Part shown: positions 17,792 to 18,636 of the stretch, piece by piece | How positions within the stretch are numbered: position 1 is the first letter of the stretch | Layout: every line of letters starts with the position of its first letter | DNA from: Candidatus Woesearchaeota archaeon | Lineage (GTDB): Archaea; Nanobdellota; Nanobdellia; SCGC-AAA011-G17; GW2011-AR18 | Reading direction: 5' to 3' | Length of the DNA: 32,211 nt | NCBI GenBank assembly: GCA_964359835.1 | Contig: CAYHUT010000001.1 | Span: forward strand, 1 to 32,211 | Notes under the pieces: generated by a model | What the model saw: the letters and a program-made list of their open reading frames with translations, nothing else | Database searches by the model: none | What the model was told of the DNA's origin: nothing | Position numbers and translations under genes: made by a program

Positions 17792-17993
17792 TTTTTATGT
17801 TAAGACACTTGACTAAAACTACATTTGTCAAGAACAATTCCTTGAGTATTTTAAAAATCACTTGATTTTCCCAGTCCCAAAAACGAGCGCCTTTTAAATC
17901 ACATCCCACGAGAAAATCTACTTAAGATTTTCTGTGTGTCAAAGTTTCTAAAAGAAACTTTTAACATTTAAGATGTGATTGTGCATCGTTTTT
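17792..17993 (+). repeat. Structured element copy B1: a 34-nt 5' module, a variable linker and a 119-nt core at 17875-17993. Candidate ncRNA or MITE-like element.
   Basis: The core is identical to 18518-18636. Stems: 17879-17890/17981-17993 (one bulged A, one G-T pair), 17897-17905/17972-17980, 17911-17919/17925-17933, 17941-17949/17953-17961. Ends in T5. Confidence 0.7.
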
Positions 17994-18098
17994 ATAATAT
18001 TTAAATAATAAAATAAACTTAAAAAATTTTAAAGTATATCTAAACAAACCCATTCTCAATAATATATACTCAATAATACTTTAAAAACTAAAGAAACC

Positions 18099-18108
18099 TT
18101 TATAAATA
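18099..18108 (+). promoter_or_regulatory. TATA-like box for the PRC-barrel gene
   Basis: TTTATAAATA about 49 nt upstream of ATG 18152. AAGGAG lies about 8 nt upstream of that ATG. Confidence 0.35.
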
Positions 18109-18151
18109 AGTAAAAACCAGTTAACATAAATTAAAACAAGGAGTGATGCTC

Positions 18152-18412
18152 ATGGATAATGAAAAAAGAATCTCAAAACAATTTATAGGCAAGCGCGTCG
18201 TATCAAAAACAGGCAAAGTCTTCGGTGATGTTGCTAATTTATTATTTGACACCAAAACTGGAGAGGTTTTACAAATAGCTTTGAAAAATACAACCGGCTA
18301 CTGCGAGGGTCTTGATCTTGAAAAATCAAAAGATGGTGAAGTTTTACTTCCATATGGTGCAGTTGTAGCAATGCAAGATTTCTTAGTCGTTGCAGAAGAA
18401 GATATTATTTAA
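18152..18412 (+). CDS. PRC-barrel domain protein
   Basis: 86 aa from ATG 18152; the track ORF begins at GTG 18143. FIGKRVVSKTGKVFGDVANLLFDTKTGEVLQIAL is a typical PRC-barrel sequence. Confidence 0.75.
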   Translation: MDNEKRISKQFIGKRVVSKTGKVFGDVANLLFDTKTGEVLQIALKNTTGYCEGLDLEKSKDGEVLLPYGAVVAMQDFLVVAEEDII

Positions 18413-18456
18413 TCTTCTTTTTATTTTAATTATTATTTACATAATTTAATTTTAAG

Positions 18457-18636
18457 TTTTTATGTCAAGGCACTTGACTAAAACTACATTCTTTAGAATG
18501 TAGTCGTGCCTTGATCATCCCAAAAACGAGCGCCTTTTAAATCACATCCCACGAGAAAATCTACTTAAGATTTTCTGTGTGTCAAAGTTTCTAAAAGAAA
18601 CTTTTAACATTTAAGATGTGATTGTGCATCGTTTTT
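18457..18636 (+). repeat. Structured element copy B2: a 34-nt 5' module that here completes a nested hairpin, then the 119-nt core at 18518-18636
   Basis: The core is identical to 17875-17993. The 5' module matches 17792-17825 at 32/34. Extra nested stems 18465-18473/18506-18514 (TCAAGGCAC/GTGCCTTGA) and 18483-18491/18496-18504 (ACTACATTC/GAATGTAGT). Confidence 0.7.

What the first reader, a model, noticed from the sequence alone, without database searches (positions are those of the whole stretch)
17875..18636. Two perfectly identical 119-nt direct repeats bracket the PRC-barrel gene right beside oriC
17875-17993 and 18518-18636 match at every one of 119 positions (offset 643 nt), yet the sequence immediately outside them differs. 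A further 34-nt module upstream of each copy (17792-17825 vs 18457-18490) matches 32/34, and the linker between module and core differs in length (49 vs 27 nt). Perfect identity in a non-coding, otherwise divergent context implies very recent duplication, gene conversion or strong constraint. The pair could also mediate deletion or inversion of the small PRC-barrel cassette. This is not explained by any gene, rRNA/tRNA or CRISPR repeat.
Basis: seen in the sequence. Interest (0 to 1): 0.75.

Follow-up and report, generated by a model that had tools for sequence, protein, structure and literature searches.

The report
Orphan palindromic insertion element, two copies
Two copies of a small, strongly self-folding, non-coding DNA element (about 180 and 200 bases) sit on either side of a conserved gene next to the replication origin of a DPANN (Woesearchaeota-type) archaeon; they are absent from the same sites in its closest relatives, so they are most likely a new family of miniature mobile element, which is a modest rather than a surprising find.

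Summary
Positions 17875-17993 and 18518-18636 are identical at 119 of 119 positions. Each copy follows a 34-nt module (32/34 identical) and a linker of 49 or 27 nt, and the two linkers cannot be aligned. Each repeat is the 3' part of a larger unit of 202 nt (17792-17993) or 180 nt (18457-18636). Five close relatives keep the same gene order (PolD, Orc1, oriC, PRC-barrel, Lon) but lack both units. Both units are therefore lineage-specific insertions around a resident gene. Each is bounded by TTTTT on both sides, and the empty sites carry T5-T7 runs. The core folds very strongly (z = -8.2). It folds equally well on both strands, with 44 Watson-Crick pairs and one G-U pair, and it has no promoter-like site. 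That pattern fits a DNA palindrome better than an evolved RNA. Searches found no match in Rfam, tRNA scans, GTDB genomes, JGI metagenomes, IMG/VR, plasmids, phages, the protein collection, or about 350 kb of related origin regions. Canonical integron attC boxes are absent, and DGR features are not met. Best reading: an orphan MITE-like foldback element present in two copies (confidence about 0.5). The main rival is a duplicated small-RNA gene cassette. Interest is modest.

The parts
17792..17993 (+). Element copy 1 (202 nt): module, linker and core. Absent from the homologous site in relative L007.
   Evidence: L007 aligns to the window up to 17796 and again from 18042, with about 70 nt where the window has about 246 nt.
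17792..17825 (+). Module 1 (34 nt). Starts with TTTTT and contains the small hairpin GTTAAG-aca-CTTGAC.
17826..17874 (+). Linker 1 (49 nt). Unrelated to linker 2. Carries a weak direct echo of the module (p about 0.05).
17875..17993 (+). Core 1 (119 nt). Nested inverted repeats: AAAAACGAGCGC / GTGCATCGTTTTT and AATCACATC / GATGTGATT, enclosing two local hairpins. Ends in T5.
18152..18412 (+). PRC-barrel gene (86 aa) lying between the two elements. A resident, syntenic gene, not cargo.
18457..18636 (+). Element copy 2 (180 nt): module, linker and core. Absent from the homologous site in L009, L010, L011 and L002.
   Evidence: The relatives have 70-76 nt where the window has about 256 nt.
18457..18490 (+). 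Module 2 (34 nt), 32/34 identical to module 1.
18491..18517 (+). Linker 2 (27 nt). An inverted repeat of module 2; together they form a strong hairpin (-23.4 kcal/mol).
   Evidence: 5 of 2000 shuffles scored as high.
18518..18636 (+). Core 2 (119 nt), identical to core 1.
17085..17760 (.). oriC-like region: AT-rich, bounded by inverted ORB-like boxes at 17141-17163 and 17730-17752. Element 1 starts 40 nt beyond the right box.
   Evidence: (I23).
28664..28764 (+). Doubtful third, diverged copy. Lies 23 nt beyond the point where collinearity with relative L033 ends.
   Evidence: Covariance-model score 21.8 bits, rough E about 0.002. Its fold is not unusual (z = -1.4) and its sequence-only similarity is not significant (z = 0.9). 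Collinearity break.

Best explanation
The two repeats are the 3' parts of two copies of a small, non-coding, non-autonomous insertion element (MITE-like, 'foldback' type; about 180-200 bp). Each copy has a 5' hairpin domain (the module plus its linker) and a 119-nt core made of nested inverted repeats. Shown: both copies are insertions into T-runs of AT-rich spacers on either side of a resident PRC-barrel gene, just outside oriC, in this lineage only. Inferred: a transposase or recombinase encoded elsewhere in the genome placed them there. This happened either by cut-and-paste with a 5-bp TTTTT target duplication, or by strand-specific insertion next to a T5 run as in hairpin-dependent single-strand transposons. 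Also inferred: the cores are kept identical by gene conversion between copies only 643 nt apart, or both came recently from source copies that differ in the 5' domain. The second route predicts further copies elsewhere in the genome. As a side effect, the pair makes the PRC-barrel gene deletable by homologous recombination.
For: (1) Presence/absence. Relatives with 98-100% identical PRC protein and 86-93% identical flanking DNA lack the unit at site 1 (L007) and at site 2 (L009, L010, L011, L002). The missing stretch matches module, linker and core together. (2) Boundaries. Both units read TTTTT|ATGT...GCATCG|TTTTT, and the empty sites in L007 and L009 carry T7 and T5 runs. (3) Palindrome anatomy. 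The core has an 8-bp perfect terminal inverted repeat that extends imperfectly to about 21-27 nt. Its reverse complement matches its own covariance model (34.6 bits). It has 44 Watson-Crick pairs and 1 G-U pair, and both strands are equally stable (-38.2 vs -40.2 kcal/mol). (4) No promoter-like site inside the units, using a weight matrix built from 15 local promoters that scores the PRC and Lon promoters at 15.6 and 11.2. (5) No coding capacity and no RNA-family or tRNA match. (6) No comparably long direct repeat beside Orc1/PRC in the eight longest related origin loci (about 150 kb). (7) Prior from the literature: a Woesearchaeal genome is among the most MITE-dense archaeal genomes, at 105 per Mb, with a median MITE size of 104 bp (PMC11602168).
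Against: Only two copies are seen, plus one doubtful one, and no copy was found in any searchable collection. No transposase gene lies in the 32-kb window, and no parent IS with the same ends was found. The composite unit has no convincing terminal inverted repeats; only the core does, and the core alone has no target duplication. The mosaic pattern (near-identical module, unrelated linker, identical core) is not what two fresh transpositions of one master copy would give. The TTTTT flanks could belong to the element rather than being a target duplication.
Confidence: 0.5

Rival explanations
1. Two copies of a small structured non-coding RNA gene cassette. The module acts as a weak TATA-type promoter, the linker is a leader, the core is a Y-shaped RNA of about 115 nt, and the T5 run is the archaeal terminator. 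The cassette was acquired recently and duplicated, and selection on the RNA keeps the cores identical.
For: The + strand fold is very strong (z = -8.2, 0 of 200 shuffles as good). The core ends exactly in a T5 run, the usual archaeal termination signal (established knowledge). The module starts with TTTTTATG, which resembles weaker local TATA boxes. One of the two module differences turns a C-G pair into U-G on the + strand. There are no substitutions in 119 nt of core, against 2 in 34 nt of module and unrelated linkers.
Against: The units are absent from the same sites in relatives as close as 92-93% nucleotide identity. They are also absent from about 350 kb of related origin regions searched with the covariance model. 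No Rfam hit appears even at E <= 10. No position inside the units scores 5 or more on the + strand with the promoter matrix. The pairing is almost purely Watson-Crick and symmetric between strands. In copy 2 the supposed promoter module pairs with the supposed leader.
Confidence: 0.2
2. The cores are folded-hairpin recombination sites for a tyrosine recombinase, in the manner of integron attC sites. Each unit would be an ORF-less cassette inserted at a secondary G/TTTTT-type site. This would explain the TTTTT on both sides without a true target duplication.
For: The 119-nt length lies within the attC range. The ends carry AAC...GTT. The fold has two stacked stems with bulges and a branched tip, loosely like R box, spacer, L box and variable terminal structure. 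[quoted passage not shown] A XerA-like recombinase gene lies 9 kb away at 27315-28160.
Against: The canonical boxes RYYYAAC / GTTRRRY are absent from the cores. So is the AACAA motif that is invariant in nine experimentally used archaeal attCs. The only four box pairs in the window lie elsewhere. The flanked gene is a conserved syntenic gene, not a cassette. The recombinase scores as XerA-like, below the curated cut-off, and only 69 bits against the integron-integrase model whose cut-off is 265.
Confidence: 0.07
3. One insertion occurred, followed by local, non-transpositional copying to the other side of the gene (ectopic gene conversion or replication slippage near the origin). The 5' domain of one copy then decayed, while conversion kept the cores the same.
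For: The copies are only 643 nt apart and in the same orientation. The 5' domain of copy 1 looks like a degraded version of the perfect hairpin in copy 2: one U-G pair, one A-C mismatch and a rearranged linker. No other copies are known.
Against: Both units have the same TTTTT boundaries at T-run target sites, which points to the same insertion mechanism acting twice. There is no flanking homology that could have templated an ectopic conversion.
Confidence: 0.15
4. Assembly artefact, or a chimera of two strains that each carry one copy.
For: The source is a low-coverage metagenome (contig names give coverage of 3-5x). Two junctions are not covered by the independent contig.
Against: The independent contig L008 carries core 1, PRC, module 2 and linker 2 together at 100% identity. 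The two copies have different 5' parts and different flanks, which assemblers do not invent.
Confidence: 0.03

Closest known systems
Prokaryotic MITEs and small palindromic repeat elements (bacterial Correia/NEMIS, ERIC, RUP; archaeal Sulfolobus SM-type MITEs)
   Same: Size of about 100-200 bp. Non-coding and intergenic. Long imperfect inverted repeats that fold into stable hairpins on either strand. Presence/absence polymorphism between close relatives. Near-identical copies within one genome.
   Different: The inverted repeats bound only the 119-nt core, not the whole inserted unit. The possible target duplication (TTTTT) bounds the whole unit, not the core. Only two copies are seen, and no parent IS is known.
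Modular mosaic repeats (E. coli BIMEs built from REP units; pneumococcal BOX elements)
   Same: Built from conserved modules separated by variable spacers. Each module is a palindrome. Subtypes differ by internal indels.
   Different: Those families have tens to hundreds of copies and, for REPs, a known RAYT transposase. Neither is shown here, and there is no sequence similarity.
IS200/IS605-derived non-autonomous elements (PATEs, e.g. in Haloquadratum) and REP/RAYT systems
   Same: No terminal inverted repeats at the unit ends. Hairpins near both ends. Both copies follow the same pentanucleotide (TTTTT). Both lie in the same orientation on one side of the origin.
   Different: The left and right hairpins are not alike. 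No TnpA, TnpB or RAYT gene lies in the window. With two copies, target specificity cannot be established.
Integron attC sites, including chromosomal arrays such as Vibrio VCRs and archaeal CALINs
   Same: Direct repeats of about 120 nt, nearly identical within a genome, in the same orientation, flanking a small ORF. They fold as imperfect hairpins with AAC...GTT at the ends.
   Different: The canonical R''/R' boxes and the L'' signature are absent. The flanked ORF is a resident gene conserved in synteny. There is no integron integrase.
Diversity-generating retroelement TR/VR repeat pairs (common in DPANN archaea)
   Same: Two direct repeats of about 120 nt that bracket a small gene.
   Different: Neither repeat lies in a coding region. 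There are no adenine-specific mismatches (0 differences). No reverse transcriptase was found among the 20 window ORFs scanned.

Membership tests
MITE (miniature inverted-repeat transposable element) | Small (under about 500 bp) and non-coding | tested here: met
   The units are 180 and 202 nt. All six reading frames are broken by stop codons, and the longest open stretch has no start codon.
MITE (miniature inverted-repeat transposable element) | Terminal inverted repeats at the ends of the inserted unit | tested here: not met
   The unit ends ATGTYAAGRCAC... and ...GTGCATCG share only about 7 of 12 positions when inverted. Only the internal 119-nt core has inverted termini: AAAAACGA/TCGTTTTT perfect, about 21-27 nt imperfect.
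MITE (miniature inverted-repeat transposable element) | Target-site duplication flanking each copy | tested here: inconclusive
   TTTTT lies on both sides of both units, and T5-T7 runs lie at the empty sites in L007 and L009. It cannot be told apart from T5 runs that belong to the element.
MITE (miniature inverted-repeat transposable element) | Insertion polymorphism: filled versus empty sites in related genomes | tested here: met
   Site 1 is empty in L007. Site 2 is empty in L009, L010, L011 and L002.
MITE (miniature inverted-repeat transposable element) | Multiple dispersed copies in the genome | not testable with these tools
   Only a 32-kb window is available, with 2 copies and 1 doubtful one. 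The genome is not among the GTDB representatives searched.
MITE (miniature inverted-repeat transposable element) | A parent IS or transposase with matching ends | tested here: not met
   No transposase domain appears among the 20 window ORFs scanned. The termini have no match in IMG/VR, plasmids or phages. The rest of the genome was not available.
IS200/IS605-type non-autonomous element (PATE / REP-like) | Similar subterminal hairpins at the left and right ends | tested here: not met
   The module hairpin and the core hairpins show no significant similarity on either strand.
IS200/IS605-type non-autonomous element (PATE / REP-like) | Insertion 3' of a fixed 4-5-nt target, with no inverted ends | tested here: inconclusive
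   Both copies follow TTTTT and the unit lacks inverted ends, but there are only two copies.
IS200/IS605-type non-autonomous element (PATE / REP-like) | A Y1 (HUH) transposase TnpA or RAYT in the genome | not testable with these tools
   None in the window. The rest of the genome was not available.
Integron attC site | R'' RYYYAAC and R' GTTRRRY boxes that pair | tested here: not met
   The cores have CAAAAAC and GTTTTT(A/G). A regex scan finds canonical box pairs only at 10709-10790 and 31951-32079.
Integron attC site | Conserved AACAA and L'' signature as in verified archaeal attCs | tested here: not met
   These are invariant in nine archaeal attCs (PMC9668308 Data S9) and absent from the core.
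Integron attC site | Hit to the IntegronFinder attC covariance model | not testable with these tools
   That model is not available here, and Rfam gave no hit.
Integron attC site | Sites follow mobile cassette ORFs, with an integron integrase nearby or elsewhere | tested here: not met
   The PRC gene is syntenic in all relatives without the repeats. The only recombinase is XerA-like: 141 bits on the XerA model and 69 bits on the integron-integrase model, whose cut-off is 265.
DGR template/variable repeat pair | The variable repeat lies in a target ORF, repeats differ at template adenines, and a reverse transcriptase is adjacent | tested here: not met
   Both repeats are non-coding. They show 0 differences. 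No reverse-transcriptase domain was found.
Known structured RNA family (Rfam) or tRNA | Score at or above the gathering threshold for any Rfam 15 model, or an ARAGORN hit | tested here: not met
   There were 0 hits at gathering thresholds across the window. The best hit at E <= 10 was ctRNA_pT181 at 20.7 bits against a threshold of 56. No tRNA was found.

The most novel reading that the evidence does not exclude
The unit is neither a classical MITE nor a relic. It would be a member of an undescribed class of structured element in DPANN archaea. One form would be a mobile small-RNA gene that spreads into T-runs through an RNA or single-strand intermediate. Another would be a folded-DNA recombination site for a Xer-like recombinase. 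In either case its 119-nt core would be under strong functional constraint, which would explain 0 of 119 differences next to a diverged 5' domain. Its position at the edge of oriC would then be part of how it works rather than an accident.
Probability: 0.12. Interest if true: 0.6.

Novelty: new member of a known kind. Interest (0 to 1): 0.3.

Why it matters
DPANN archaea have tiny, streamlined genomes, and little is known about their mobile DNA. A clean filled-site versus empty-site case gives a concrete handle on how such elements move in this group. This case has defined boundaries and a T-run target. It also has a mosaic structure of conserved module, free linker and invariant core. The pair brackets a PRC-barrel gene that is conserved next to the origin across the clade. 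To my recollection, not checked here, this protein family has been linked to archaeal cell division. The pair therefore creates a ready-made deletion substrate at a potentially important locus. If the core proves to be constrained rather than merely young, it would be a candidate new structured RNA or recombination site. Otherwise this is a routine addition to the catalogue of small repeats.

Tried and rejected
- **Known RNA families.** Rfam found nothing at gathering thresholds across the whole window. At E <= 10 on 17650-18750 the only hits were noise. ARAGORN found no tRNA. By reading the sequence and fold, I considered and dropped 5S rRNA, the SRP Alu domain, H/ACA and C/D guide RNAs, hammerhead-type ribozymes and RNase P. 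The helix layout does not fit and the box motifs are missing.
- **Other copies, DNA searches.** GTDB representative genomes gave one chance hit in Paenibacillus. An exact 24-mer found nothing in JGI metagenomes. Five patterns found nothing in IMG/VR, including a gapped termini pattern and a purine/pyrimidine-coded hairpin pattern. blastn against plasmids and phages found nothing.
- **Other copies, protein route.** Concatenated six-frame peptides of both elements matched nothing among 5.8 billion protein clusters.
- **Covariance-model search.** The core model found no hit in about 350 kb of Woesearchaeota origin regions.
- **Third copy at 28664-28764.** It scores 21.8 bits, but its fold (z = -1.4) and its sequence similarity (z = 0.9) are not significant. 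I left it as doubtful.
- **Integrated-element att sites with PRC as cargo.** Rejected, because PRC is syntenic without the repeats in all relatives.
- **DGR TR/VR pair.** Rejected.
- **Integron attC.** Canonical boxes are absent. A small attC model was not built because MAFFT could align only the R box.
- **Micro-ORF in the module** (M[S/L]RHLTKTTF...). The C-termini differ (13 vs 22 aa) and there is no ribosome-binding site. Rejected.
- **Similarity of the core to the ORB box** (TCCCACGAG vs TCCACACGAA). It needs an indel and I judged it to be chance.
- **Supplementary MITE sequences of PMC11602168.** Not held as text.
- **Exact-protein look-up of the window's Lon.** Not on record.

Full report
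**1. Observation.**
Positions 17875-17993 and 18518-18636 are identical at all 119 positions. The bases immediately outside differ. No other copy exists in the 32,211-nt window.

The 34-nt upstream module (17792-17825 vs 18457-18490) matches at 32 of 34 positions, and it occurs nowhere else in the window on either strand. The linkers between module and core are 49 and 27 nt. They are not significantly alignable: 413 of 2000 shuffles score as high.

An independently assembled contig from the same sample is 100% identical to window 17916-18511. This is L008 (ENA ERZ1292622, 596 nt). It carries part of core 1, the PRC gene, module 2 and linker 2 on one molecule.

**2. Context.**
The window comes from a DPANN archaeon of the Woesearchaeota/Nanoarchaeia type found in groundwater. 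This follows from the names that sources give to the Orc1 and PRC homologues and from the sample names.

The gene order runs as follows:
- PolD large and small subunits
- Orc1/Cdc6 at 15882-17084, minus strand
- a spacer of 18% GC, bounded by inverted ORB-like boxes at 17141-17163 and 17730-17752
- the PRC-barrel gene at 18152-18412
- archaeal Lon at 18732-20603
- arginyl-tRNA synthetase

The same order holds in every relative fetched, and the ORB-like boxes are conserved in the relatives whose origin spacer I read (L002, L007, L011). Calling the region 'beside oriC' is therefore reasonable. The PRC-barrel gene is a resident gene, not a cassette.

**3. The repeats belong to larger inserted units.**
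I used the PRC protein to find close relatives with 98-100% amino-acid identity and 86-93% identity in the flanking DNA.

| Site | Relative(s) | Relative has | Window has |
|---|---|---|---|
| 1 (upstream of PRC) | L007 | about 70 nt | about 246 nt (17796-18042) |
| 2 (PRC to Lon spacer) | L009, L010, L011, L002 | 70-76 nt | about 256 nt (18459-18715) |

The extra DNA matches module, linker and core together: 202 nt at 17792-17993 and 180 nt at 18457-18636. Both units are therefore insertions specific to this lineage.

Each unit reads TTTTT|ATGT...GCATCG|TTTTT. The empty sites in L007 and L009 carry T7 and T5 runs. Two explanations fit: a 5-bp target duplication, or insertion next to a T-run by an element that carries its own T5.

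**4. Anatomy.**
The core folds into a long basal stem of two helices, AAAAACGAGCGC/GUGCAUCGUUUUU and AAUCACAUC/GAUGUGAUU. The helices are separated by a 6-nt bulge and carry two hairpins. The minimum free energy is -38.2 kcal/mol, with z = -8.2 and 0 of 200 shuffles as good.

The opposite strand folds just as well, at -40.2 kcal/mol. The pairing is 44 Watson-Crick pairs to 1 G-U pair. The reverse complement of the core also matches the core's own covariance model at 34.6 bits. This symmetry is what nested DNA inverted repeats give. It is less typical of an RNA shaped by selection on one strand.

In copy 2 the module and linker form a further strong hairpin, and the linker is an inverted repeat of the module (5 of 2000 shuffles). 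In copy 1 this 5' domain is degraded, with one U-G pair, one A-C mismatch and a rearranged linker.

I built a promoter weight matrix from 15 upstream regions in the window. It scores the PRC and Lon promoters at 15.6 and 11.2. No position on the + strand inside either unit reaches 5. No reading frame is credible.

**5. Searches for relatives of the element.**
None of these searches gave a meaningful match:
- Rfam at gathering thresholds over the whole window, and at E <= 10 over the locus
- tRNA scan
- GTDB representative genomes, which gave only one chance hit
- JGI metagenomes with an exact 24-mer
- IMG/VR with five patterns
- plasmids and phages by blastn
- six-frame peptides of both units against 5.8 billion protein clusters

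A covariance model of the core found nothing in about 350 kb of origin regions from related Woesearchaeota. The eight longest of those loci (about 150 kb) contain no comparably long direct repeat beside Orc1/PRC.

The only other hit is weak, at window 28664-28764 (21.8 bits, rough E about 0.002). It lies 23 nt beyond the point where collinearity with relative L033 ends. It keeps the 'CAC, G-bulge, 9-bp A/U stem, GUGUG' layout of hairpin 1. However, its overall fold (z = -1.4) and its plain sequence similarity (z = 0.9) are not significant. I treat it as unproven.

**6. Interpretation.**
The best-supported reading is an orphan, non-autonomous, MITE-like foldback element present in two copies.
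- *Shown:* the filled-versus-empty site polymorphism, the defined boundaries at T-runs, the palindromic non-coding anatomy, and the absence of any known RNA family.
- *Inferred:* mobilisation by an enzyme encoded elsewhere, and the mode of insertion.

The mosaic pattern needs an explanation, because the module differs at 2 of 34 positions, the linkers are unrelated and the cores differ at 0 of 119. If the core had diverged at the module's rate, about 7 differences would be expected. Three explanations are open. Gene conversion between copies 643 nt apart may have homogenised the cores. The two copies may come from source copies of different subtypes, which predicts more copies in the genome. 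Or the core may be under strong constraint.

The literature supports the prior. One Woesearchaeal genome is among the most MITE-dense archaeal genomes, at 105 per Mb, with a median MITE size of 104 bp (PMC11602168).

**7. Rivals.**
- *Duplicated small-RNA gene cassette (about 0.2).* The strong fold, the T5 end and the invariant core favour it. Against it are the absence from close relatives, the lack of a promoter, and strand-symmetric pairing that is almost purely Watson-Crick.
- *attC-like recombination site (about 0.07).* This was worth testing because integrons and attC clusters occur in Nanoarchaeota (PMC9668308). Chromosomal attCs are near-identical repeats of about 120 nt that flank small ORFs. 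The cores have AAC...GTT at their ends. They lack the RYYYAAC/GTTRRRY boxes and the AACAA motif found in nine verified archaeal attCs. The flanked gene is resident, and the only recombinase in the window is XerA-like.
- *One insertion followed by local copying (about 0.15).*
- *Assembly or strain chimera (about 0.03).*
- *A DGR repeat pair and att sites of an integrated element.* Both rejected.

**8. Comparison and novelty.**
The element works like bacterial and archaeal small palindromic repeats: MITEs, Correia, ERIC, and the modular BIME and BOX elements. It cannot be filed as a strict MITE. The inverted repeats bound the core rather than the inserted unit, the copy number is unknown, and no parent IS is known. 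Features of IS200/IS605-type (PATE/REP) elements are partly compatible but untested.

I rate it a new member of a known kind. Interest is modest at 0.3. The main added value lies in the clean insertion polymorphism at the edge of an archaeal origin, the unusual mosaic conservation, and the deletion substrate it creates around a conserved PRC-barrel gene. That gene's best solved relative is PDB 8qzo (E = 5.6e-8).

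Noticed in passing
window 17085-17760, with boxes at 17141-17163 and 17730-17752: oriC-like spacer of 18% GC, bounded by inverted ORB-like boxes (GGTCCACACGAAC type). The boxes are conserved in relatives L002, L007 and L011.
   Followed up: partly
window 18152-18412; L002, L003, L005, L009-L011: The 86-aa PRC-barrel gene lies between oriC and Lon in every Woesearchaeota relative fetched. Its best solved relative is the PRC-barrel protein 8qzo (E = 5.6e-8). 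From memory, this family has been tied to archaeal cell division.
   Followed up: partly
window 28664-28764 (+): Weak covariance-model hit to the core (21.8 bits), 23 nt past the point (28640) where collinearity with relative L033 ends. It overlaps the stop codon of ORF 28145-28690, whose C-terminus differs from the relative's. It may be a decayed copy or chance.
   Followed up: partly
window 8427-10712: A 2.3-kb segment with an FMN-reductase-like gene and a CorA gene is missing from the otherwise collinear relative L033 (about 80% nucleotide identity over 5800-28640).
   Followed up: no
window 24167-24542 and 24751-24835: Three degenerate direct repeats of about 55 nt lie in a 730-nt non-coding stretch. 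They are followed by GC-rich palindromic boxes (GTCTACGACACGT / CGTAGACGTCTAC) just upstream of ORF 24900-25577, which has a weak winged-helix match. The boxes look like operator sites.
   Followed up: no
window 27315-28160; L033 18752-19594 and 20140-20261: A XerA-like tyrosine recombinase scores 141 bits on NF040815, below the cut-off of 220. The relative L033 has a second integrase gene right after the neighbouring 176-aa ORF, at the point where the window's gene content differs.
   Followed up: partly
L003 / L004 1-2639: The Lon protease gene of a relative with 74% Orc1 identity is 1237 aa long and carries an intein (Intein_splicing and LAGLIDADG domains).
   Followed up: no
L007 610-1329; L010 616-700: The PRC-Lon spacer is variable in relatives. 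In L007 a methyltransferase-like gene on the opposite strand follows PRC instead of Lon. L010 has its own small palindrome there (GGGATTAatttaTAATCCC).
   Followed up: no
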